DNA from: Candidatus Omnitrophota bacterium
Lineage (GTDB): Bacteria > Omnitrophota > Gorgyraeia > Zapsychrales > Zapsychraceae
Assembly: GCA_029261055.1 (NCBI GenBank)
Contig: JAJDCA010000071.1
Coordinates: 25,778-89,777, forward strand
DNA length: 64,000 bases
Direction of reading: 5' to 3'
This document shows, piece after piece, positions 1,568-41,745 of this stretch (positions are counted from its first letter, which is position 1; each line of letters begins with the position of its first letter). Both the position numbers and the translations under genes were made by a program. The notes beneath the pieces were generated by a model that was given only the letters and a program-made list of their open reading frames with translations, searched no databases and had not been told where the DNA came from.

Positions 1568-2788
1568 ATGCCGACATTTGTTTATAAAGCGCGTGATGAG
1601 GTTGGAAAATCTATTGCCGGTATCATGGAGGCTGCTTCAGAAAATGAACTTATCAATAAATTGAGAAAATTAAGTTATATGCCGGTAAGTGTTGAGGAGT
1701 CTGTTCAAAAGATTGCAACGGAGGGTAAAAAATCAAGCCACTCTTTTAAAAAGATAAAATCTGAAGACAAGATTATGTTTAATATGCAGTTAGCAAGTAT
1801 GCTTGATGCCGGTATCACATTGCTCAGTGCATTAAATATAATATCAAAGCAAATACAGAATGAGAATTTTAAAAGTGTCATTGAGAAAATTACACAATCT
1901 GTTTCCGCAGGGGCTTCTCTTTCAGAATCTTTGGTGCAACACCCGACGGTTTTTTCCAGTTTGTTTGTAAGTATGGTGAGAGCTGGAGAGACGGGAGGAA
2001 AGCTTAATGAGATTTTAAACAGACTAGCTATTTACTTAGAGAAACAAGAAGAATTAAAGCAGAAAATTAATGGAGCACTTTTTTATCCAATGATATTGAT
2101 CGTCGCCGGTCTATTGGTTATTCTTGTGATCGTGACATTTGTCATACCAAAATTCATTGTGATTTTTGATAAAGCGGATGTTGTTCTTCCTTTACCAACG
2201 CAGATACTTTATGGATTTGGAATCGCGGTCAAAAAGTTTTGGTATTTAATGATTTTGGGTGGTTTTTTAGTAAGTTTGGCTATTAAATCTTTTATTAATT
2301 CGCCGAAGGGTAGGTTTAAATTTGATCAGTTAAAACTTAAAATACCGATTGTTGGATCAGTTGTACGAAAAGTTGTGGTGGCACGGTTTACCCGAACGCT
2401 GGCAACTTTAGTCGATAGCGGGGTATCTATGATGCAGTCTCTGGATATCATGCAGGATGTTGTGGGAAATGAAGTTTTTCGTCGTGTTATTGGGCAAGTG
2501 CGGAAAAGCGTTGAAAGAGGGGAACGATTAGATCAACCATTAAAAATGAGTGGTGAATTTCCTGATGATGCGGTTCATATGATTTCTGTAGGAGAGGAGA
2601 CAGGGAAGTTGGGGCCAATGTTAAACAAAATAGCAGATTTTTATGATACAAGTATTGACTATCAAGTTAGGAAATTAACAACTCTTATTGAACCAATTTT
2701 TATCACAATTATGGGGGGCGTGGTAGGATTTATTATGGCGTCAATGCTTATACCCATTTTTGATATGGTTAAAACAATACAAAGATAA
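1568..2788 (+). CDS. Type II secretion / type IV pilus inner-membrane platform protein (GspF/PilC family)
   Basis: 406 aa with two T2SSF-like repeats and 3 TM segments. Follows gspE immediately with a 1-nt gap. Confidence 0.88.
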   Translation: MPTFVYKARDEVGKSIAGIMEAASENELINKLRKLSYMPVSVEESVQKIATEGKKSSHSFKKIKSEDKIMFNMQLASMLDAGITLLSALNIISKQIQNENFKSVIEKITQSVSAGASLSESLVQHPTVFSSLFVSMVRAGETGGKLNEILNRLAIYLEKQEELKQKINGALFYPMILIVAGLLVILVIVTFVIPKFIVIFDKADVVLPLPTQILYGFGIAVKKFWYLMILGGFLVSLAIKSFINSPKGRFKFDQLKLKIPIVGSVVRKVVVARFTRTLATLVDSGVSMMQSLDIMQDVVGNEVFRRVIGQVRKSVERGERLDQPLKMSGEFPDDAVHMISVGEETGKLGPMLNKIADFYDTSIDYQVRKLTTLIEPIFITIMGGVVGFIMASMLIPIFDMVKTIQR

Positions 2789-2799
2789 AATTAACTTTA

Positions 2800-2920
2800 A
2801 GAAATGACGTTCCTCGGAGCAAGTACGCAAGGTATTGACTTAAAACATTACAACGAGGCAAGCCTCGGGGAATTGAACCCGTTTGAGATTGGCTAAATAA
2901 TTTGTTCAGCCAATCTCTTA
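2800..2920. repeat. Type B element copy 1, in reverse orientation
   Basis: Reverse complement reads TTAATTAAGAGATTGGCTGAACAAATTATTTAGCCAATCTCAAACGGGTTCAATTCCCCGAGGCTTGCCTCG.... Confidence 0.8.
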
Positions 2921-2945
2921 ATTAAATTAAAAAAGGAGAAGTTAA

Positions 2946-3392
2946 ATGAAGAGGAAAGGTTTTACAATTATTGAATTATTAGTCGTTATTGCTGTCATTT
3001 CGATCCTGATTGGAATCGCTGTGCCCCGAATTAAAGGTATGCAGGATCAGGCGAATATGACCAAAGCGGAAGCTGAAACAAAGACAATTAAGGTGGCCAT
3101 TGAATCTTATTACATAAACCAAACTCCAAATGCCTACCCAGCATCGTCTACGACAATTGTAAATACAACATTGGATAATCAAACGCCGCTGATTATTTCG
3201 GATATTTTATATGATCCATTCTTAACGACGAGTACGGAATATAATTATATCAAATCAAGTAATGGTCAGTATTATGTCATATTTTCTGTTGGCCCGGATG
3301 GGGTTGCGGATATTACAGGCATAAGTGATGCTGGTGTTTTAGCAGGGGCTGATGATGATGATCTTTATGCAACCAATGGGACAGGGTTCTAA
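2946..3392 (+). CDS. Major pseudopilin / pilin with prepilin-type N-terminus (GspG/PulG-like)
   Basis: N-terminus MKRKGFTIIELLVVIAVISIL carries the class III signal and the G|FTxxE methylation motif. An AAGGAG RBS lies upstream. Confidence 0.85.
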   Translation: MKRKGFTIIELLVVIAVISILIGIAVPRIKGMQDQANMTKAEAETKTIKVAIESYYINQTPNAYPASSTTIVNTTLDNQTPLIISDILYDPFLTTSTEYNYIKSSNGQYYVIFSVGPDGVADITGISDAGVLAGADDDDLYATNGTGF

Positions 3393-3753
3393 TAGAAAAG
3401 GTTTTTCTTTAATTGAAGTCATTATAACGATTGTTCTTTTGACGGTCGGTGTTATTTCGATCTTGCAGATGTTTAGCATCGGACTGTTTGCAGACGCAGA
3501 AACAGAGAATCAAACAACCGCTTTTTATTTGGCTCAAGAAAAGATGGAAGAAGTTCGTGACGCTTCATCTTACGCGAATATTGATTCTTTTGCGGCATCT
3601 AAAACAGCCCTAACCGGGAGTTTTATTGACTTTTCTCGTGAGGTTACTGTTTCTGGAACACCTAAGCAGGTCAATGTTATTGTTTATTGGAATGTTAAAG
3701 GGGCGGAGCAGAGTGTTGATTTGGTTTCATTATTTGCCGATTATAATTACTGA
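3376..3753 (+). CDS. Minor pseudopilin (GspI/PilV-like), prepilin-type N-terminus
   Basis: MGQGSNRKGFSLIEVIITIVLLTVGV contains the G|FSLIE prepilin motif. The longer ORF-track start at 3352 overlaps the upstream gene, so an internal ATG near 3376 is more plausible. Confidence 0.75.
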   Translation: MGQGSNRKGFSLIEVIITIVLLTVGVISILQMFSIGLFADAETENQTTAFYLAQEKMEEVRDASSYANIDSFAASKTALTGSFIDFSREVTVSGTPKQVNVIVYWNVKGAEQSVDLVSLFADYNY

Positions 3754-3789
3754 TGAAAAAACAAGGGTTTACCCCGTTAGAGATAAAAA

Positions 3790-4539
3790 ATGTACTTCAC
3801 GTATGTTATTAAAAGTAAAAAAGATAATAATTGGTATACAGGGTATACCAAGGATTTACGAAATCGGATTAAAGAGCATAATGAAGGAAATGTCTTTTCA
3901 ACAAAAACTAGAAGGCCTTTCGAGTTAATATATTATGAAGCATGTCTTAATGAAAAAGATGCTATAGCTAGAGAAAAATATTTAAAATCGGGGATGGGGA
4001 AAAGATACTTAAAAAATCGATTGAAGGTGTTTTTATCTCTAACGGGGTTTACCATATTAGAGATCCTCATCGTCATTCTCGCTTTAACGATTGTCGTTGG
4101 GGTGGTTAATAATGTGTATATCGTAGGGCTAGATTTGTGGAGTGAAGGAATTAGTCGTTCAAGTATTAGAACAGATCTTTCTCAAGCTTTAGAATTAGTC
4201 AGTAAAAATTTAAGAAGAGCAACAAGTATCGATGCCATAACAGCCAGCAGCATTACTTTTACAGCTGATTTAGGCGGTGGGAGTAGCTCATACCGCGTGT
4301 ATCTCTACAATGCATCTGATTCAGAGCCGAACCCTCCTTATTCACAAGATAATTATGATTTGCGTTGGGCGCAAGGAACAACGACTTACGGTTCCGGGGC
4401 TAATTTAGCAACAGATATTGCGCAGCCAATCAATACTCCTTTTACTCAAAATGGTAATGTGATCACTTTAGACTTAACGGCGACGCGAGGAGAAGAAACG
4501 GTAAGGTTGCGTTCAAACGTTAGGCCAAGGAATTTGTGA
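3790..4539 (+). CDS. In-frame fusion of a complete GIY-YIG nuclease domain (YhbQ/UPF0213-like, aa 1-~80) with a GspJ/PilW-like pseudopilin. The pseudopilin part could alternatively initiate at TTG 4021 or GTG 4027
   Basis: N-terminus YFTYVIKS..NWYTGYTKDLRNRIKEHN...AREKYLK matches the GIY-YIG signature. It reads without a stop into ...K-V-F-L-S-L-T-G|F-T-I-L-E-I-L (prepilin motif) and a C-terminal pseudopilin body. Confidence 0.7.
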   Translation: MYFTYVIKSKKDNNWYTGYTKDLRNRIKEHNEGNVFSTKTRRPFELIYYEACLNEKDAIAREKYLKSGMGKRYLKNRLKVFLSLTGFTILEILIVILALTIVVGVVNNVYIVGLDLWSEGISRSSIRTDLSQALELVSKNLRRATSIDAITASSITFTADLGGGSSSYRVYLYNASDSEPNPPYSQDNYDLRWAQGTTTYGSGANLATDIAQPINTPFTQNGNVITLDLTATRGEETVRLRSNVRPRNL

Positions 4540-5624
4540 AGATGTCCAGAAAGATCGGTTTTAATCAGCGTGGCGTTGTTCTTATTCTCACGTTTATTAT
4601 TATGGTGAGTTTAATCGTCGTGGCTTCTTCATATATTTTTTTGGTTACGTATGACACGAGGAATGTTGGGGGACAGAAAAGTAATGTATCTGCATTTTAT
4701 TTGGCAGAAGCGGGGCTCAATAAAGCTATTTATTATTTATTAAACACAGCCCCAGATAGTTCAACGGATAGTTCGTGGCGCACCACGGCTTATCCAGCCG
4801 TTCCTGGTGCTGGAAATACGGATCCGCAGCAAGAATCATTAGGAGGTGGGACGTACACAATGTGGGTTGAGACATCTGGAAGTGACGTTCAGATTACTGC
4901 CCGCGGGACCGCCAATGGCATTGAGCGAATCATTCGACAGGCTGTGTCGTATTCGGCGGGCGGGAGCGTCCCCGAAGCATTGACTTATGCAAATCATGCG
5001 GGGGGGAATGTTACCTTTGATGGCGCTCATAATGGAACAGTCACAGGGAATATCGGGGCGCAAGGAAACATTGAGGATTCCAGTAATATTACGGTCAACG
5101 GAACAGAGTCAGACAGTTCAAGTATTGTTACCCCGACGGTTGATTATAGTGAATATGAAAATATAGCGGATACCGTCGTTAACGGGAATAAAACATTTTC
5201 TAAAAACAATACGTATTCCGGGATTTGGTATGTGAAAGGGAATGCTATTATTGAAAAGAGTGTTACCATAAACGGGTCGTTGATTGTCGAGGGAGATATC
5301 GAAATAAAGAATGTGAATAATGTTGATATCACAGCTACGTCTCCTTACCCGGCGCTAGTAGCGCAAGGCAATATTGATTTAAGTGAGTCAAATAATATTA
5401 ATATTACCGGGCCTATTTTTTCTGAAGGGAATCTCGTTTTTAAGGATATTGTAAATGTCGGCGTCATCGGTAGCATGGTTGCCGATGGAAATATAGAATT
5501 TGGGGATTCAAATAATTTTAGTGTCACCTTTGCTTCAAGCGACCCTCCGTATTTTTCTGGTGGAGAAGTTGGAGGAGTCGGGGCTTCCATAAATGCAGTT
5601 GCCAACAATTGGGAAGAAATGTAA
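4536..5624 (+). CDS. Large minor pseudopilin (GspK/PilX-like) with parallel beta-helix-like N[IV]xxxG repeats
   Basis: An N-terminal hydrophobic helix follows the short leader MKMSRKIGFNQRG. It has repeated NITVNG / NIDLSESNNINITG segments and overlaps the upstream stop (GTGAAGATG). Confidence 0.7.
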   Translation: MKMSRKIGFNQRGVVLILTFIIMVSLIVVASSYIFLVTYDTRNVGGQKSNVSAFYLAEAGLNKAIYYLLNTAPDSSTDSSWRTTAYPAVPGAGNTDPQQESLGGGTYTMWVETSGSDVQITARGTANGIERIIRQAVSYSAGGSVPEALTYANHAGGNVTFDGAHNGTVTGNIGAQGNIEDSSNITVNGTESDSSSIVTPTVDYSEYENIADTVVNGNKTFSKNNTYSGIWYVKGNAIIEKSVTINGSLIVEGDIEIKNVNNVDITATSPYPALVAQGNIDLSESNNINITGPIFSEGNLVFKDIVNVGVIGSMVADGNIEFGDSNNFSVTFASSDPPYFSGGEVGGVGASINAVANNWEEM

Positions 5625-7318
5625 TGGCTGAAATTGATTTCAAAAAACTAAAGTTACAAAAAAAATTAGCTGCGGGAAAAACGACGATTGGCATTGATAT
5701 TGGAACAAGTTCAATCAATATTGCTCAAATGGCGAAATATAAAGGAAAGCCCACATTAATAAAAACAGCCATTGTTTGTATTGAAAAAAAAGTTGATGAA
5801 GATAAAGGGCAGACAACATTAAAAGCTTTGAACAAAGCCTTATCCAATTTTAATACAAAGAATGCAAAGTTGGCCTGTGTTGTGAATTGTCCACAAACAT
5901 GTGTTAGAAAAGTTATTACGCCTTATATGCCTAAGGATGAGCTTAAAGGAGCTGTTGGTCTGGAGGTCAAACAATCCATTCCGTTTCCATTCGAGGAAGC
6001 GGTTTTAGATTTTAATGTTATTGAGGACGTTCGGGATAAAGGTGTTGAAAAATTAAGTGTTATTGTGGCGGCTTCTCCAAAAGAAACGATTGCGCAATTG
6101 CTTTCTTATTTTATAAAGAAAAAGGCAAAGCCATTTACAGGAGCAATAAGTAAAAAATTTGAAGGCAAAGAGCTTGAGAATCCTTTAGGGATAAAACTTT
6201 CAGGGCTTTTGCCAATGTCGTTATGCATAGAAAATATTATTGAAAAATCAAATTTAAAAATGTCGGAGACTTTGGTTGCGGTTGAAATAGGGACGGTTGT
6301 TACGGAATTAAATATTTTTAAGAATTCACGATTACAATTTTCTCGGAAGATACCATTTTCAGGACAAGATATCACAAAAAGTTTAACAGGTGCATTAATG
6401 ACGGAGCAAGGAAAAGTTGAATTAACATTAGAAGAAGCCGAACAAATTAAAAGAAAATATGGGGTTCCGAGAGTCGAAGATAATCAAATTGTAGACGGTA
6501 AGATTACAACTAATCATATATTATCTTTGGTCCGACCGAAAGTCGAACAATTGGCGAATGAAATTGAACGGTCATTTGATTTTTATCGAGAAGAAATGCA
6601 TGGGGATAAGATTGACAGGATTGTATTGTTTGGAGGTGGGGCACAACTTAAAGGCTTGGATGAATTTTTAAGTAAGGAATTAGAACTCGAAGTTAACTTG
6701 GCTAATCCTTTGGAAGATATTGATATTTTAGATGATGAAGTGGTGGAAAATGCGATGGATGCGCATAAGTTAGTGTTAGCTATTGGAGCCGCTTCAAGCA
6801 GCATGAAAGGAATTAATCTTTTACCCGTGGAAACAAAGGGGGAATCAAATTCTTCGGTTCAAAAGGTTGCATTGAGTTCAGGTGTTTTTTCAGTGGCAAT
6901 ATTATTATTGGTAGCATATGGCGTTATAAAAAATAAAGAGATGTCCCTAAACAAGAGTTATCAATTGGACAATGCAGAATTGATGCAGTTGATGCCTCAA
7001 TTACAACAATTAAAAGAAAAGAAAAAGATTGATCAATTATTGGCAAGAAGGCCTTCTTGGAGTGCGGCTTTAAAAGAGATTAGCCATATTGTTCCGGTTA
7101 ATATGTATTTGATGGATATGGATTTAAATGATAATAGTTTGAGCTTAAAAGGTGTTATTGAGCATGGAGAAGTTTCACCCGAAAATTTAATTTCTCAATT
7201 TATGGTAAATTTAGAGCGCGGAATTTTTAATAATGTGAAATTAATTAAAATAGAAAAAAAAGAAGATAAGTTGTCTGCACTGCATTTTGAAATTAAATGT
7301 CAGGTGAATATTAAATGA
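5624..7318 (+). CDS. PilM-PilN fusion: an actin-like pilus assembly ATPase-fold protein fused to a PilN-like TM/coiled-coil module
   Basis: The N-terminal ~380 aa are PilM-like (IGIDIGTSSINIAQ...). A TM helix VALSSGVFSVAILLLVAYGVI and a coiled-coil periplasmic region typical of PilN follow. The ATG at 5624 overlaps the upstream TAA, and the ORF-track start at 5609 is TTG. Confidence 0.8.
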   Translation: MAEIDFKKLKLQKKLAAGKTTIGIDIGTSSINIAQMAKYKGKPTLIKTAIVCIEKKVDEDKGQTTLKALNKALSNFNTKNAKLACVVNCPQTCVRKVITPYMPKDELKGAVGLEVKQSIPFPFEEAVLDFNVIEDVRDKGVEKLSVIVAASPKETIAQLLSYFIKKKAKPFTGAISKKFEGKELENPLGIKLSGLLPMSLCIENIIEKSNLKMSETLVAVEIGTVVTELNIFKNSRLQFSRKIPFSGQDITKSLTGALMTEQGKVELTLEEAEQIKRKYGVPRVEDNQIVDGKITTNHILSLVRPKVEQLANEIERSFDFYREEMHGDKIDRIVLFGGGAQLKGLDEFLSKELELEVNLANPLEDIDILDDEVVENAMDAHKLVLAIGAASSSMKGINLLPVETKGESNSSVQKVALSSGVFSVAILLLVAYGVIKNKEMSLNKSYQLDNAELMQLMPQLQQLKEKKKIDQLLARRPSWSAALKEISHIVPVNMYLMDMDLNDNSLSLKGVIEHGEVSPENLISQFMVNLERGIFNNVKLIKIEKKEDKLSALHFEIKCQVNIK

Positions 7319-12390: not shown

Positions 12391-13763
12391 TTGAACACAT
12401 ATTAGCTAATCTTCAGAGTATCGGCATATTTATTATTTTTCTTGGCATTCTTATTACAGTGCACGAGTGGGGTCATTTTATTACCGCCAAGAAATTAGGT
12501 ATTAACGTGGAAGAATTTGCTTTAGGTTTTGGTCCGACACTTTTAAGTAAGCCCTACAATGGCACGAATTACATGATTAAGCTTTTTCCGTTAGGTGGTT
12601 ATGTAAAAATGGCTGGAGATGAACGGGATCGATGTAAAGGTTTGCCCGAGGAGTTTCTTTCAAAGCCGCCGGGTCATCGGGCCTTAGTGGTCCTTAACGG
12701 GCCGGTAGTGAATTTTGTGTTGGCGTATGTTTGCCTTGTGTTGGTATTTATGCTGGGATTTTCTAATCCTTCGACCGTAGTGGTTGGTATGCGTCAAGGT
12801 CTGCCGGCTCAGGTATCAGGGGTTCAGTTAGGAGATAAAATTGTAGAGGTTGACGGGCAAAAGGTATTTTATTTAAAAGAAATAATATCCCATATTGCAC
12901 AATCCACGCAAGAACAGGTGCAATTAAAAATTTTAAGAAATGGTCAGGAAATTGTAAAAAATATTGAGTCCAGAGTCGTTCATGAAAAAAATATGATTGG
13001 TCAGTATGAAGATAAGAGAACCATTGGGTTAGATGCGAATTCAAGTAAAGTTGGAGGTTTTAGTAAGGATGGTCCGGCGGAAGTTGCGGGATTTCAGGTA
13101 GGTGATCGTATTGTAGAAATCAATGGTCATGAAGTTTTTGGTTGGCAAGATTTGCAGAAGACTGTGAGTGAATCAAAGGAAAAAGCAATTACAATCAAGA
13201 TTTTACGTGAAGGTCAGGAACTTACAAAAATTGTGGCACCGGAAATTAAAAAATTGAAAACACGATCCGGTGAGGAAAAAGAGAAACGGATGATTGGTGT
13301 CGGCGCTATGCCGGAAAAATGGGTGACGCACAAATTTAATTTGTGGACGGCATTAGGGCGAGGGTATCATGAATTTGTTGATATAACAACAATGACCTAC
13401 AAAGCGCTTTATGCTATGGTGACGGGATCGATGTCTGCCCGAGAGAGTGTTGGCGGACCAGTGCTCATATTTAATATTGTTAAAGAAGCCAGTGCTTTGG
13501 GTTTTTCACATTTTCTTTTTATTCTTGGTGTGATCAGCCTTAATTTAGCCATTTTTAATCTTTTGCCCATTATTCCTTTAGATGGGGGCCATTTATTTTT
13601 ATTGGCAATAGAAAAAATTCGGGGGCGAGCGCTTTCGCCCAAGGCAGATGATTTGATCTCCCGAGTTGGTTTAAGTTTGATGATCCTTTTGGCTTTGTAT
13701 GTGTTTTACATTGATTTTGAGAGAATTGGGCTAATTAGTAAAATTAAAGGAATTTTTCACTAA
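12387..13763 (+). CDS. rseP: RIP metalloprotease (site-2 protease) with two PDZ domains
   Basis: HEWGHF zinc motif, tandem PDZ domains, and a C-terminal LDGG motif. ATG overlaps the dxr TGA. Confidence 0.9.
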   Translation: MIEHILANLQSIGIFIIFLGILITVHEWGHFITAKKLGINVEEFALGFGPTLLSKPYNGTNYMIKLFPLGGYVKMAGDERDRCKGLPEEFLSKPPGHRALVVLNGPVVNFVLAYVCLVLVFMLGFSNPSTVVVGMRQGLPAQVSGVQLGDKIVEVDGQKVFYLKEIISHIAQSTQEQVQLKILRNGQEIVKNIESRVVHEKNMIGQYEDKRTIGLDANSSKVGGFSKDGPAEVAGFQVGDRIVEINGHEVFGWQDLQKTVSESKEKAITIKILREGQELTKIVAPEIKKLKTRSGEEKEKRMIGVGAMPEKWVTHKFNLWTALGRGYHEFVDITTMTYKALYAMVTGSMSARESVGGPVLIFNIVKEASALGFSHFLFILGVISLNLAIFNLLPIIPLDGGHLFLLAIEKIRGRALSPKADDLISRVGLSLMILLALYVFYIDFERIGLISKIKGIFH

Positions 13764-13820
13764 TTAAGAGATTGGCTTAACAAATTATTTTGCCAATCTC
13801 CAACGGGTTTAATTTCCCGA
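13761..13820. repeat. Type B element copy 2, truncated, between rseP and the cpaF-like gene
   Basis: TAATTAAGAGATTGGCTTAACAAATTATTTTGCCAATCTCCAACGGGTTTAATTTCCCGA. Confidence 0.8.
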
Positions 13821-28061: not shown

Positions 28062-28136
28062 TTAATTAGGAATTTCTAGCTTTAAAGAAATTCCAAAAGG
28101 GTCTAATTCCCCGAGGCTTGCCCCGAGGAGATTCAT
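28062..28136. repeat. Modular intergenic palindromic element, type A copy 1 (hairpin GGAATTTCT-agctttaa-AGAAATTCC + gggtctaattccCCGAGGcttgCCCCGagg module)
   Basis: Near-identical copy at 33227-33300 and a half copy at 31777-31810. The 3' module is shared with the type B elements. Confidence 0.8.
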
Positions 28137-33226: not shown

Positions 33227-33300
33227 TAATTAAGGAATTTCTAGTTTTAAAGAAATTCCAAAAGGGTCTAATTCCCCGAGGCTTGCCTCGAGGAGATTCA
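33227..33300. repeat. Type A element copy 2, inserted between mlaF and mlaD inside the mla operon
   Basis: 74 bp with ~96% identity to the 28062-28136 copy. Confidence 0.8.
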
Positions 33301-41600: not shown

Positions 41601-41620
41601 GAATTAATTTTGGCAATTAT

Positions 41621-41745
41621 TTAATTAAGAGATTGGCTGAACAAATTATTTAGCCAATCTCCAACGGGTTTAATTCCTCGAGGCTTGCCTCGTATTTAGG
41701 AATTCCGTTTGATACCTCGTGGGCTTGCCCCGGGGAGACTTCATT
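41621..41745. repeat. Modular intergenic palindromic element, type B copy 3 (hairpin GAGATTGGC-loop-GCCAATCTC + ccaacgggtttaattcc + CGAGGcttgCCTCG, plus a further degenerate module)
   Basis: Other copies: 13761-13820 (same orientation, truncated) and 2800-2920 (reverse orientation, with an extra module). Confidence 0.8.

What the first reader, a model, noticed from the sequence alone, without database searches (positions are those of the whole stretch)
3790..4539. Complete GIY-YIG nuclease domain fused in-frame to a pseudopilin inside the pilus/T2SS-like operon
The first ~80 codons of this ORF form a complete small GIY-YIG domain of the YhbQ/UPF0213 type (YFTYVIKS..NWYTGYTKDL..R..EHN...AREKYLK).

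With no intervening stop the frame continues into ...RLKVFLSLTG|FTILEILIVILALT..., a textbook prepilin cleavage/methylation motif, followed by a GspJ/PilW-like pseudopilin body.

The pseudopilin has no ATG of its own. It could start only at TTG 4021 (MKVFLSLTG|FT..) or GTG 4027.

Possible explanations:
- A small mobile GIY-YIG gene landed upstream of the pseudopilin and lost its stop.
- A genuine fusion in which the prepilin peptidase would release an ~86-aa cytoplasmic GIY-YIG 'leader'. This would be an unprecedented leader length.
- A sequencing or assembly indel.

To my knowledge none of these has been described for pilin loci.
Basis: partly seen in the sequence, partly recalled or inferred. 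Interest (0 to 1): 0.7.

Follow-up and report, generated by a model that had tools for sequence, protein, structure and literature searches.

The report
Mobile nuclease gene inside pilin leader
A tiny mobile element that carries only an 86-codon GIY-YIG nuclease gene has jumped into the start of a pilus-subunit gene, and it rebuilds the site where the cell's pilin-processing protease cuts, so the host protein can probably still be made; the same trick recurs in many unrelated pilin genes from uncultured bacteria.

Summary
ORF 3790-4539 encodes a complete UPF0213/Slx1-type GIY-YIG domain (aa 1-82) that runs without a stop into ...LSLTG|FTILEIL... and a pseudopilin body.

It is not an artefact or a chance adjacency. 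It is a 272-bp mobile element (3774-4045) with 16-18-bp terminal inverted repeats and an 8-bp target duplication (GGTTTACC). The element sits between the pseudopilin's own start/leader and its mature part. The severed start and leader survive as relic ORF 3753-3812, MKKQGFTPLEI.... Syntenic Omnitrophota loci (L081-L083) show the empty site.

The same 86-codon cassette and inverted repeats occur at 567 or more loci across many phyla. There the cassette usually stops right after ...LSLTG, just upstream of a co-oriented host gene. In at least 30 different pilin genes it is fused exactly at G|F. ORF-less miniature derivatives occupy the same site, almost always in frame with the pilin's own start.

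My best reading is that the insert is translated as an oversized prepilin leader and cut off by prepilin peptidase, which releases the nuclease. This step is inferred, not shown. The rivals are an internal TTG/GTG start and a dead pseudopilin.

I found no prior description. Interest is high.

The parts
3352..3753 (+). Upstream minor pseudopilin gene (133-aa ORF). Its TGA stop (3751-3753) overlaps the original start codon of the interrupted pseudopilin.
   Evidence: Pfam N_methyl at aa 13-37. The same gene order is seen in L081-L083.
3753..3812 (+). Relic of the pseudopilin's own start codon and leader. It is a 19-codon ORF, MKKQGFTPLEIKNVLHVCY*. MKKQG|FT is host sequence and PLEI... is the left inverted repeat read in frame. 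It is out of frame with the 3790 ORF.
   Evidence: Read directly from the sequence. Orthologue leaders are MKKTAFT (P0007) and MSKASFT (P0002).
3766..3773 (.). Left copy of the target-site duplication GGTTTACC. This is the maximal reading; the minimal reading is TTTA or TTTAC.
   Evidence: direct repeat D1. (TSD = GGTTTACC). The sequence is present only once in empty-site orthologues L081/L082.
3774..3789 (.). Left terminal inverted repeat CCGTTAGAGATAAAAA. The perfect complementarity runs over 3772-3789.
   Evidence: inverted repeat I1: 24 nt at 92%, of which 18 are perfect. The family-wide inverted repeat is [C/T]CCCGTTAGAGA[T/C/A], with covariation at both of its edges.
3790..4047 (+). The 86-codon GIY-YIG cassette (UPF0213/Slx1-like minimal nuclease). 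Its last codons ...F L S L T G are encoded by the right inverted repeat.
   Evidence: dN/dS is about 0.13 across 64 copies.
4021..4029 (+). Possible internal starts: TTG 4021 (codon 78) and GTG 4027 (codon 80). The GTG comes from a window-specific R80V change. No well-spaced Shine-Dalgarno sequence lies upstream.
   Evidence: R80 is conserved in at least 90% of 40 cassettes. The start-capable codon at position 78 is not significantly enriched in fused copies.
4030..4045 (.). Right terminal inverted repeat TTTTTATCTCTAACGG. The perfect complementarity runs over 4030-4047.
   Evidence: The two arms pair as an 18-bp panhandle when folded as RNA.
4046..4053 (.). Right copy of the target-site duplication GGTTTACC. 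It supplies the end of the Gly-86 codon and the Phe+1 and Thr+2 codons of the mature pseudopilin.
4048..4539 (+). Mature pseudopilin (163 aa plus stop), FTILEILIVILALT.... It is orthologous to 160-190-aa Omnitrophota prepilin-type proteins and sits at the third-pilin (PilW/GspJ-like) position in the operon.
   Evidence: P0002-P0059, up to 73% identity, none with a GIY-YIG domain. (synteny). (helix plus sheet fold).

Best explanation
What it is (shown):
- Bases 3774-4045 are a recently inserted 272-bp autonomous mobile element.
- Its only gene is an 86-codon minimal GIY-YIG nuclease of the UPF0213/Slx1 type.
- The element is bounded by a 13-bp family inverted repeat, [C/T]CCCGTTAGAGA[T/C/A]. 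In this copy 16-18 bp are perfectly complementary.
- The last five codons of the nuclease (LSLTG) lie inside the right repeat.
- The element entered the third pilin gene of a type IV pilus / T2SS-like operon at GGTTTACC, the codons for Gly(-1)-Phe(+1)-Thr(+2), and duplicated those 8 bp.

Consequences (shown):
- The host start codon and leader (MKKQG|FT) are cut off and left as a 19-codon relic ORF.
- The element's ORF has no stop at this kind of target, so it reads straight into the mature pseudopilin.
- The junction recreates a canonical prepilin-peptidase site, ...KNRLKVFLSLTG|FTILE.

How it most likely works (inferred):
- The 249-aa protein is made from ATG 3790. Ribosomes finishing the upstream gene and the overlapping relic ORF may help initiation.
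- The hydrophobic pilin helix inserts into the membrane with the nuclease domain on the cytoplasmic side.
- Prepilin peptidase cuts after Gly-86. This frees a normal mature pseudopilin and a soluble nuclease.
- The insertion is therefore phenotypically near-silent, and the element borrows the host's expression signals.
- The pilin G-F-T codons match the element's preferred target and are present in every pilin gene. That explains the repeated hits and the stacked inserts.

How the nuclease moves the element is unknown. Candidates are staggered cleavage followed by host repair or copying, possibly through a single-stranded panhandle formed by the two repeats.
For: That it is an insertion:
- Inverted and direct repeats exactly bracket the ORF.
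- Syntenic Omnitrophota loci L081-L083 carry the uninterrupted gene (..ATGAAAAAAACAGCTTTTACTATTCTTGAA = MKKTAFTILE), with the duplicated segment present only once.
- None of the orthologues P0002-P0059 has a GIY-YIG domain.

That it belongs to a mobile family:
- At least 567 loci in one-genome-per-species contigs, spread over many phyla, share 64-77% amino-acid identity.
- 68 of 81 copies have the paired repeats, and element length is 270-281 bp in 67 of the 68 (L072 is 301).
- The repeat arms covary at positions -2 and +10: 63/68 and 66/68 Watson-Crick pairs against about 28 in shuffles.
- Direct repeats of 5-8 nt flank about 12 copies.
- dN/dS is about 0.13 with synonymous sites saturated.
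- There are 8030 cluster representatives at E<=1e-3.

Host-sparing habit:
- 42 of 68 copies stop immediately after G86 (p about 1e-38 against chance).
- 33 of 42 such copies have a co-oriented host ORF starting within 80 nt.
- 19 of 42 have an exact ATGA overlap of stop and start.

Pilin junction:
- The identical ...[KR]xLSLTG|FT junction occurs in 35 fusion proteins. Most of their partners are pilins of different types (T2SSG, PulJ, DUF1559, GspH-like, TadE-like G|Q); a few are not pilins at all.
- The partner parts are mostly unrelated to each other, while the cassettes are 63-78% identical.

Read-through is needed in some copies:
- In L024 the cassette has lost its own ATG and is in frame with the host pilin start.
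- In L047 and L064, codon 78 is CTG and CTC, which are not usable starts.

ORF-less derivatives with the same ends sit at the same G|FT site of 27 pilin genes:
- 16-17 of the 19 inserts where a left repeat was found have lengths that are multiples of 3, although lengths range from 33 to 126 bp.
- The comparison is 44/83 in frame in non-pilin contexts (Fisher p = 0.0025-0.01) and p = 6e-7 against one third.
- Stacked inserts (P0075, P0078, P0099, L088, L177) fit a target that is regenerated by each insertion.

Structure: the AF2 model shows two well-folded domains joined by a low-confidence hinge exactly at the junction.
Against: - No expression, proteomic or cleavage data exist. Prepilin-peptidase processing of an 86-aa folded leader has no precedent that I know of; known leaders reach about 30 aa (from memory).
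- The in-frame fusion follows automatically from the geometry of the element and its target, so the fusion itself does not prove selection.
- This copy looks young (perfect repeats and perfect duplication). An intact downstream ORF therefore says little about whether it still functions.
- In this copy the relic leader is out of frame with the cassette. ATG 3790 has only a weak Shine-Dalgarno-like AGAGA upstream.
- The cassette also occurs fused in frame to non-pilin proteins (L009, L063, P0096, P0098, P0107, P0117), where no peptidase site can rescue the host protein.
- No prepilin peptidase gene was found in the 64-kb window, which is expected for a fragment.
- GIY-YIG enzymes are hydrolytic nucleases with no known strand-transfer chemistry, so the transposition step is unexplained. 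Many copies with longer inverted repeats show no direct repeat.
Confidence: 0.7

Rival explanations
1. Same insertion, but the pseudopilin is translated separately from an internal start inside the element's right end. TTG 4021 would give MKVFLSLTG|FT... and GTG 4027 would give MFLSLTG|FT.... The element would then act as a portable start codon plus short leader, and the 249-aa read-through product would be an irrelevant by-product.
For: - M/L-K-R-F-L-S-L-T-G is an ideal short basic prepilin leader.
- Some pilin-fused cassettes have ATG at codon 78 (P0071, P0075, P0090, P0092, P0104, L025, L058). That is 8/45 fused copies against 2/42 unfused (p = 0.056).
- The window copy has a unique R80V change that creates the GTG.
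Against: - No well-spaced Shine-Dalgarno sequence precedes TTG 4021 or GTG 4027, whereas neighbouring genes have clear AAGGAG-type sites.
- Codon 78 is CTG or CTC in L047 and L064. In L024 the cassette's only start is the host start far upstream.
- Codon-78 usage in DNA does not differ significantly between fused and unfused copies.
- ORF-less inserts keep the frame with the upstream host start. That would be unnecessary if internal starts were the rule.
Confidence: 0.2
2. The insertion simply inactivated this minor pseudopilin. The fusion protein is not processed, or not made, and the gene is a young pseudogene that has not yet decayed.
For: - The insertion is recent: perfect 18-bp repeats, a perfect 8-bp duplication, and absence from all detected orthologues.
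- The in-frame junction is automatic.
- The cassette is also found in frame inside non-pilin proteins.
Against: - Older pilin-inserted copies, with a decayed duplication or repeat mismatches (for example L047), still have full-length pilin ORFs.
- At least 30 different pilin genes, including major-pilin-type T2SSG proteins (P0067/L024, P0075, P0083, P0104), carry it with intact ORFs.
- The frame is preserved in 16-17 of 19 miniature inserts at the same site.
Confidence: 0.1
3. Sequencing or assembly artefact: a missing base or stop, or a chimeric join, creates a false fusion of two separate genes.
For: The window comes from a metagenome-type assembly. I could not inspect any reads.
Against: - The same codon-exact junction occurs in dozens of independent assemblies from different sources.
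- Both flanks are collinear with L081-L083.
- The segment has the full anatomy of an element: inverted repeats, target duplication and an intact ORF.
- The identical 249-aa protein is recorded from two sources, NCBI and Logan.
Confidence: 0.01

Closest known systems
Ssn nucleases with NTS/SRM hairpin repeats (Chenal et al. 2025, PMC11893778)
   Same: - A small single-domain GIY-YIG protein flanked on both sides by conserved repeats, an architecture those authors called IS-like.
- Related repeats are dispersed in the genome. The window also holds five hairpin repeats, and the three of one type (A-C) carry a motif 14/17 identical to the element's left end.
   Different: - Ssn is the cd10448 clade. 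This cassette is closest to UPF0213/Slx1 (1ZG2, 1YWL, 7CQ3).
- The published SRM motif is absent from the window.
- Here the two flanking repeats are inverted copies of each other rather than self-contained hairpins.
- Filled and empty sites with a target duplication show mobility here. Mobility was not shown for Ssn.
- Ssn repeats are rarely inside genes.
Free-standing GIY-YIG homing endonuclease genes (I-TevI, Seg proteins), including cases where such a gene splits a host gene that stays functional (the split-gene cases are from memory)
   Same: A selfish GIY-YIG nuclease gene that inserts into conserved host sequences in a way that spares host function.
   Different: - Homing enzymes have a C-terminal DNA-binding domain and are 200-250 aa. 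This one is 86 aa with none, and the TIGR01453 model scores 20 bits against a cutoff of 56.
- Homing leaves no inverted repeats or target duplications.
- Those genes are mainly found in phages and organelles. This family is chromosomal, with only 6 distant hits in viral contigs.
Insertion sequences and MITEs (elements with terminal inverted repeats and target duplications)
   Same: Terminal inverted repeats, a short target duplication, autonomous and ORF-less copies that share the same ends, and many genomic contexts.
   Different: - There is no DDE, HUH, serine or tyrosine transposase. The only ORF is a hydrolytic GIY-YIG nuclease.
- The ORF extends into the right repeat.
- There is a strong bias toward the 5' ends of co-oriented genes.
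Rickettsia palindromic elements and other repeats inserted in frame within protein-coding genes (from memory)
   Same: Short palindromic mobile DNA that is tolerated in frame within ORFs. The miniature derivatives here behave the same way.
   Different: Here the insert sits at a protease-processing site, so it need not remain in the mature protein. An autonomous nuclease-encoding copy is also identified.
Inteins and self-splicing introns
   Same: The logic is the same: a selfish element inside a coding gene that is removed before the host protein functions.
   Different: - There is no Hint/intein domain, and no intron structure or Rfam hit.
- Removal would be done by a host enzyme (prepilin peptidase), not by the element itself. 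This step is inferred.
Ordinary class III (prepilin) signal peptides, including long type IVb leaders (about 15-30 aa, from memory)
   Same: G at -1, a hydrophobic +1 residue, E at +5, a basic leader on the cytoplasmic side, and a pilus operon context.
   Different: The leader would be 86 aa and a folded enzyme. The miniature inserts give leaders of about 16-49 aa.

Membership tests
GIY-YIG nuclease superfamily, Slx1/UPF0213 (YhbQ-like) branch | Match to the GIY-YIG domain profile above the curated threshold | tested here: met
   PF01541 at 63.1 bits against a cutoff of 22.6, covering aa 1-68.
GIY-YIG nuclease superfamily, Slx1/UPF0213 (YhbQ-like) branch | Conserved catalytic and structural residues: Tyr of 'GIY', Tyr-x-Gly of 'YIG', Arg, His and Glu | tested here: met
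   Y5, Y16/G18, R26, H30 and E62 are invariant or nearly so in 40 cassettes and are present in the window copy. Assigning catalytic roles to them rests on general knowledge of the superfamily.
GIY-YIG nuclease superfamily, Slx1/UPF0213 (YhbQ-like) branch | The closest solved structures are UPF0213/Slx1 rather than UvrC or I-TevI | tested here: met
   Sequence profile: 1ZG2 at E = 2.5e-9 and 1YWL at E = 6e-4. Fold search: 1ZG2, then Slx1 7CQ3.
GIY-YIG nuclease superfamily, Slx1/UPF0213 (YhbQ-like) branch | Nuclease activity | not testable with these tools
   Supported only indirectly, by purifying selection (dN/dS about 0.13).
Type IV pilin-like proteins (class III signal peptide; pseudopilins) | Cleavage motif G(-1)|F(+1), E(+5), followed by a hydrophobic helix of about 20 aa | tested here: met
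   ...SLTG|FTILEILIVILALTIVVGVV.
Type IV pilin-like proteins (class III signal peptide; pseudopilins) | Pfam N_methyl (PF07963) match | tested here: inconclusive
   Not reported at E<=0.1 for this ORF. Many orthologues carry a precomputed PF07963 hit and are named prepilin-type proteins by NCBI/JGI.
Type IV pilin-like proteins (class III signal peptide; pseudopilins) | Short basic leader of about 5-30 aa | tested here: not met
   The leader of the ORF as it stands is 86 aa. It would be met only if TTG 4021 is the start (9 aa). The original 5-aa leader MKKQG is severed.
Type IV pilin-like proteins (class III signal peptide; pseudopilins) | Pilin fold (long N-terminal helix packed on a beta-sheet) and a pilus/T2SS operon context | tested here: met
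   AF2 gives helix 89-142 and sheet 144-244 at pLDDT above 90. The operon has PilB, PilC, pilins, PilX_N, PilM/N and PilO. The Foldseek hit to the XcpGHIJK pseudopilus is weak.
Type IV pilin-like proteins (class III signal peptide; pseudopilins) | Processing and N-methylation by prepilin peptidase | not testable with these tools
   No peptidase gene was found in the window. No expression data are available.
Ssn / NTS system (cd10448) | Flanked by hairpin repeats that match the published SRM degenerate motif | tested here: not met
   Zero SRM matches on either strand of the 64-kb window.
Ssn / NTS system (cd10448) | Membership of the cd10448 clade and ssDNA-specific cleavage | not tested
   No Ssn sequence or CDD model was available. 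The nearest structures are UPF0213/Slx1, which that paper lists as a separate family.
GIY-YIG homing endonucleases (I-TevI/Seg type) | N-terminal GIY-YIG domain plus a linker and a C-terminal DNA-binding domain | tested here: not met
   The cassette is 86 aa with no extra domain. TIGR01453 scores 20.4 bits against a cutoff of 56.
Transposable elements with terminal inverted repeats (IS/MITE type) | Terminal inverted repeats | tested here: met
   18 nt are perfect in the window. The family has a 13-bp repeat with covariation at its edges.
Transposable elements with terminal inverted repeats (IS/MITE type) | A target-site duplication, and filled versus empty sites at orthologous loci | tested here: met
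   GGTTTACC occurs twice in the window and once in L081/L082. Direct repeats of 5-8 nt flank about 12 other copies. Many copies have none.
Transposable elements with terminal inverted repeats (IS/MITE type) | Encodes a recognised transposase (DDE, HUH, Ser or Tyr) | tested here: not met
   The only ORF is the GIY-YIG nuclease.
Inteins / self-splicing introns | A Hint/intein domain or a group I/II intron RNA structure | tested here: not met
   Pfam shows only GIY-YIG. There is no Rfam match in 2700-4700 at E<=1.

The most novel reading that the evidence does not exclude
The window copy represents a previously unrecognised class of prokaryotic mobile element.
- It is about 272 bp, has terminal inverted repeats, and carries only an 86-aa GIY-YIG nuclease as its mobility gene.
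- It has miniature ORF-less derivatives.
- It specialises in the 5' ends of host genes. Some copies overlap start codons. Others sit at the prepilin cleavage site, where the host's own prepilin peptidase would excise the element's product from the host protein.
- This would be a third route, beside introns and inteins, by which a selfish element can sit inside a coding gene without destroying it.
Probability: 0.45. Interest if true: 0.9.

Novelty: new variant of a known kind. Interest (0 to 1): 0.8.

Why it matters
If correct, several things follow.
- The 'minimal, vertically inherited' bacterial Slx1/UPF0213 GIY-YIG proteins would include a large horizontally mobile selfish family. No function has been established for these proteins as far as I know.
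- A nuclease outside the known transposase classes would be implicated in an element that has inverted repeats and target duplications.
- A host signal-peptidase site would be exploited as a safe landing pad. The same reasoning predicts that prepilin peptidases tolerate very long, folded leaders, which could be useful as a cleavable-tag system.
- Automated annotation of pilins in Omnitrophota, Patescibacteria and other uncultured phyla is affected. Public records already label such fusions 'GspG' or 'GIY-YIG nuclease family protein'.
- A compact, sequence-specific nuclease and target pair becomes available for biochemical study.

Tried and rejected
- Other copies of the GIY-YIG gene in the window: none found by tblastn.
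- Rfam on 2700-4700: no family.
- Promoter and terminator scan: nothing above the shuffled expectation that bears on the element.
- Prepilin peptidase (GxGD motif) in the window: none.
- The Ssn SRM motif: absent.
- Phage carriage: only 6 distant relatives in viral contigs, so a phage vector is not supported.
- Exact-protein look-up of the 249-aa ORF for its source contig: not on record. The cluster look-up gave no name.
- Enrichment of start-capable codons at cassette position 78 in fused copies: not significant at DNA level and borderline at protein level (p = 0.056). I therefore do not use it as an argument.
- A single clean target-duplication rule for the whole family: failed. Copies with longer inverted repeats (TTYACCCCG...CGGGGTRAA) mostly show no direct repeat, and the boundary between repeat and duplication is ambiguous (4 versus 8 bp) in the CCCCG subfamily.
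- Literature searches found no description of the element or the fusion. I searched GIY-YIG with pilin, GIY-YIG with terminal inverted repeats or Patescibacteria, YhbQ/UPF0213/COG2827, the repeat sequence itself, prepilin with MITE, and GIY-YIG with Omnitrophota or CPR.
- The PDB fold search did not assign the pseudopilin to a specific GspH/I/J/K type.
Full report
**1. The observation**

ORF 3790-4539 (+, 249 aa) is present as described.
- Residues 1-68 match Pfam GIY-YIG at 63 bits against a cutoff of 22.6.
- A profile of the cassette finds the UPF0213 structures 1ZG2 and 1YWL.
- A fold search with the AlphaFold2 model returns 1ZG2 and Slx1 first.
- The frame runs without a stop into ...KNRLKVFLSLTG|FTILEILIVILALTIVVGVV.... 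The model shows a GIY-YIG fold (1-82), a low-confidence hinge at 81-90, a helix at 89-142 and a beta-sheet at 144-244, which is a pilin shape.
- TTG 4021 and GTG 4027 are codons 78 and 80 of the ORF.
- The surrounding genes are PilB, PilC, a T2SSG-type major pilin, a second pilin, this gene, a PilX_N protein, a PilM/N fusion and PilO.

**2.

- Immediately upstream, ATG 3753 overlaps the TGA of the preceding pilin gene. It opens a 19-codon ORF, MKKQGFTPLEIKNVLHVCY*, in a different frame. This is a prepilin leader and cleavage motif with nothing behind it.
- The GIY-YIG ORF is bracketed by an inverted repeat, 3772-3789 CCCCGTTAGAGATAAAAA and 4030-4047 TTTTTATCTCTAACGGGG.
- It is also bracketed by a direct repeat, GGTTTACC at 3766-3773 and 4046-4053.

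**3. The empty site**

- The closest orthologues (P0002-P0059, up to 73% identity, named Omnitrophota/Omnitrophica where named at all) are 150-210 aa. They have ordinary short leaders and no GIY-YIG domain.
- Three contigs carrying P0007 have the same operon order. The gene begins ..TACGAATGAAAAAAACAGCTTTTACTATTCTTGAA (MKKTAFTILE) and overlaps the stop of the upstream gene.
- The window matches this sequence up to TTTAC, then carries the extra DNA, then resumes at GTTTACCATATTAGAG.
- So 272 bp plus an 8-bp duplication were inserted between the leader and the mature part of the pseudopilin. This disposes of the artefact hypothesis and of 'trivial adjacency'.

**4. The insert belongs to a large mobile family**

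- Forty proteins from the first search contain an 86-aa cassette, M[FY]YTYV...REKYLKSGMGKRYLKNR[LM]KRFLSLTG, with mean column identity of 80%.
At least 567 loci were confirmed at 64-77% identity. They come from Patescibacteria (most), Omnitrophota, Planctomycetota, Elusimicrobiota, Nitrospirota, Desulfobacterota, Bdellovibrionota and others.
- Sixty-eight of 81 copies show the paired ends, and element length is 270-281 bp in 67 of the 68 (L072 is 301).
- The arms are complementary from -2 to +10, [C/T]CCCGTTAGAGA[T/C/A]. At the two variable edge positions they covary: 63/68 and 66/68 Watson-Crick pairs against about 28 in shuffles.
- Direct repeats of 5-8 nt flank about a dozen copies.
- The cassette is under strong purifying selection (median dN/dS 0.13, with dS saturated at about 1.8).
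- A full-library search gives 8030 cluster representatives at E<=1e-3. Most are 85-130 aa.
- Only six distant relatives occur in viral contigs.

**5. The family's habit**

- In 42 of 68 copies the ORF stops immediately after ...LSLTG (TGA 25, TAA 15, TAG 2). The stop lies just outside the 13-bp repeat.
- Thirty-three of those 42 have a co-oriented host ORF starting within 80 nt. In 19 the element's TGA overlaps the host ATG (GGA TGA / ATG).
- In the Patescibacteria subfamily the duplication includes the host start codon (ATGAAT, ATGAGT, ATGAT).
- Several of those copies have lost their own ATG and read from the duplicated host start as MNPVRDNK....
- The element therefore takes over the translation start of a host gene and hands translation back. 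The pilin case is a variant of this habit.

**6. The pilin junction recurs**

- Thirty-five fusion proteins carry the cassette joined to a downstream partner at the same point. In most of them it is fused at ...SLTG|FT[LIV][LIV]E to a pilin.
- The Pfam types differ: T2SSG, N_methyl only, PulJ and DUF1559. Some partners are TadE-like with G|QAxLE.
- The mature parts are mostly unrelated to one another (9 homologous pairs at 27-42% identity), whereas the cassettes are 63-78% identical.
- Among the 80 genome loci, which were retrieved with the cassette alone as the query, five are pilin fusions: L024, L025, L047, L058 and L064.
- The left junctions read ...G-F-T-P-L-E-I, that is, host G-F-T followed by the left repeat. 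The duplication is TTTAC or GGTTTACC.
- GGN-TTT-ACC (Gly-Phe-Thr) fits the GG-TNNA-CC-like sites duplicated elsewhere in this subfamily: GGTTAACC in L026 and GGAAACC in L007. A DNA-level target preference therefore plausibly explains why pilin genes are hit.

**7. Is the fusion used?**

Three observations say that pilins behind such inserts are still expressed through the insert.
- First, in L024 (a T2SSG-type pilin) the cassette has no ATG of its own and is in frame with the host's start and leader. In L047 and L064, codon 78 is CTG and CTC, so no internal start exists.
- Second, a metagenome scan for the right junction (CTCTAACGGGGTTTAC) reached its limit at 120 contigs.
  - Nearly all hits are ORF-less miniature elements with the same ends.
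  - Twenty-seven sit at G|FT of pilin-like ORFs (at least 90 aa, or cut by a contig end). Examples are L134, MNRRGFTPLEKAYPVRGRSSLTG|FTLIELL, and L170, which carries a 21-bp footprint.
- Third, a left repeat was recognisable in 19 of these.
  - In 16 (17 after correcting L134) the insert length is a multiple of three, and 15 have no stop. Lengths range from 33 to 126 bp.
  - The comparison is 44/83 in frame in non-pilin contexts (Fisher p = 0.0025-0.01) and p = 6e-7 against one third.

Stacked inserts fit a target that each insertion regenerates. P0075, P0078 and P0099 have a cassette, then a miniature element, then the pilin. L088 and L177 have stacked miniature elements.

These facts favour translation of the insert as an extended leader that is cut off at the regenerated G|F. 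They do not prove it for the 86-aa folded domain.

**8. Caveats**

- The in-frame fusion is automatic given the geometry of the element and its target.
- This copy is young.
- Its relic leader is out of frame with the cassette, and ATG 3790 has a weak ribosome-binding site.
- The cassette is also found in frame in non-pilin proteins (L009 after codon 2 of a membrane protein, P0117 internally).
- GIY-YIG enzymes have no known strand-transfer chemistry, so the movement mechanism is open.
- An internal start (TTG 4021 or GTG 4027, the latter created by a window-specific R80V change) remains possible here. M at position 78 is only marginally enriched in fused copies (p = 0.056).

**9. Comparison with what is known**

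- The nuclease is a member of the Slx1/UPF0213 branch. Dunin-Horkawicz et al. 2006 (PMC1564403) described the bacterial members of this branch as the minimal standalone form, mostly vertically inherited.
- The nearest described system in architecture is Ssn/NTS (PMC11893778). It is also a small GIY-YIG protein flanked by repeats and was noted as IS-like, but it is a different clade. Its SRM motif is absent here.
- This is not a homing endonuclease of the I-TevI type, because it has no DNA-binding domain.
- It is not an intein or an intron.
- It has the ends of an IS/MITE but no known transposase.
- Seven literature searches found no description of the fusion, the element or its repeats.

**10. 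Verdict**

- The finding is real.
- I regard it as a new variant of a known kind: a selfish GIY-YIG element with transposon-like ends and host-sparing insertion sites.
- There is a substantial chance (about 0.45) that it represents a new element class with host-peptidase-mediated removal of the insert from the protein.
- Interest: 0.8.

Noticed in passing
window 2853-2925 (+), 41619-41693 (-), 13761-13820 (-); variant copies near 33235-33300 (-) and 28065-28130 (-): A second, intergenic repeat family of about 75 nt with two hairpins.
- Consensus of the first three copies: CGAGGCAAGCCTCG-GGGAATTAAACCCGTTGGAGATTGGCT-loop-AGCCAATCTCTTAATTAA.
- It carries AAACCCGTT[G/T]GAGAT, which is 14/17 identical to the left end of the GIY-YIG element.
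- The two variant copies replace the second stem with a different but still complementary pair of arms.
- The copy at 2853-2925 makes the pilC-pilin spacer 157 nt, against 30 nt in the syntenic locus L081, so it is itself an insertion.
- There is no Rfam hit.
- These may be non-autonomous partners or extra substrates of the nuclease.
   Followed up: partly
L016, L020, L032, L046, L053, L059, L066, L074, L075, L078 (around positions 2960-3270 of each locus): A Patescibacteria subfamily of the element inserts at host start codons.
- The duplication is ATGAAT, ATGAGT or ATGAT.
- The element's TGA stop overlaps the host ATG.
- Some copies have no ATG of their own and read from the duplicated host start (MNPVRDNK...).
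   Followed up: partly
L084-L203 (metagenome contigs), for example L118, L141, L143, L139: Hundreds of ORF-less miniature elements (about 21-180 bp) share the ends TTTACCCCGTTAGAG...CTCTAACGGGGTTTAC. Recurrent length classes are 117, 69, 63 and 51 bp. Even outside pilin genes, 44 of 83 are multiples of three, which is more than the one third expected.
   Followed up: partly
P0075, P0078, P0099; L088 (2357-2498), L177: Stacked inserts lie in front of a single pilin gene: a cassette followed by a miniature element, or several miniature elements in tandem. Each ends in ...SLTG|FT. This is what would be expected if every insertion regenerates the target.
   Followed up: no
P0090 (Omnitrophica CG07 MAG), cassette residues about 52-69: The GIY-YIG cassette of this pilin fusion is itself interrupted by a 17-aa in-frame segment, PVRNDRYRWHLISNGAC. 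Its ends read like the family's repeats in another frame (CCCGTTAGA...TCTAACGGG, inferred from the protein sequence). It looks like a miniature element inside the nuclease gene.
   Followed up: no
L009 (3001-3860), L063, and proteins P0096, P0098, P0107, P0117: The cassette also occurs in frame within non-pilin proteins. In L009 it follows codon 2 of a membrane protein (duplication TCAA). In P0117 it lies inside a CxxCxxCC-domain protein.
   Followed up: no
L044, L055, L071, L072, L080, L023, L034: These are variant copies. The C-terminus of the ORF differs (...KFFFEIES......KFFFDDLNEG...), and a CCCGTTAGAAAT-like repeat follows the ORF in direct rather than inverted orientation. They may be a different subfamily or rearranged ends.
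   Followed up: no
window 5609-7318 (+) and 4536-5624 (+): PilM and PilN are fused in one 569-aa ORF, as they are in L081. The PilX_N gene more likely starts at ATG 4542, which is preceded by AAGGAA, than at the listed GTG 4536.
   Followed up: no
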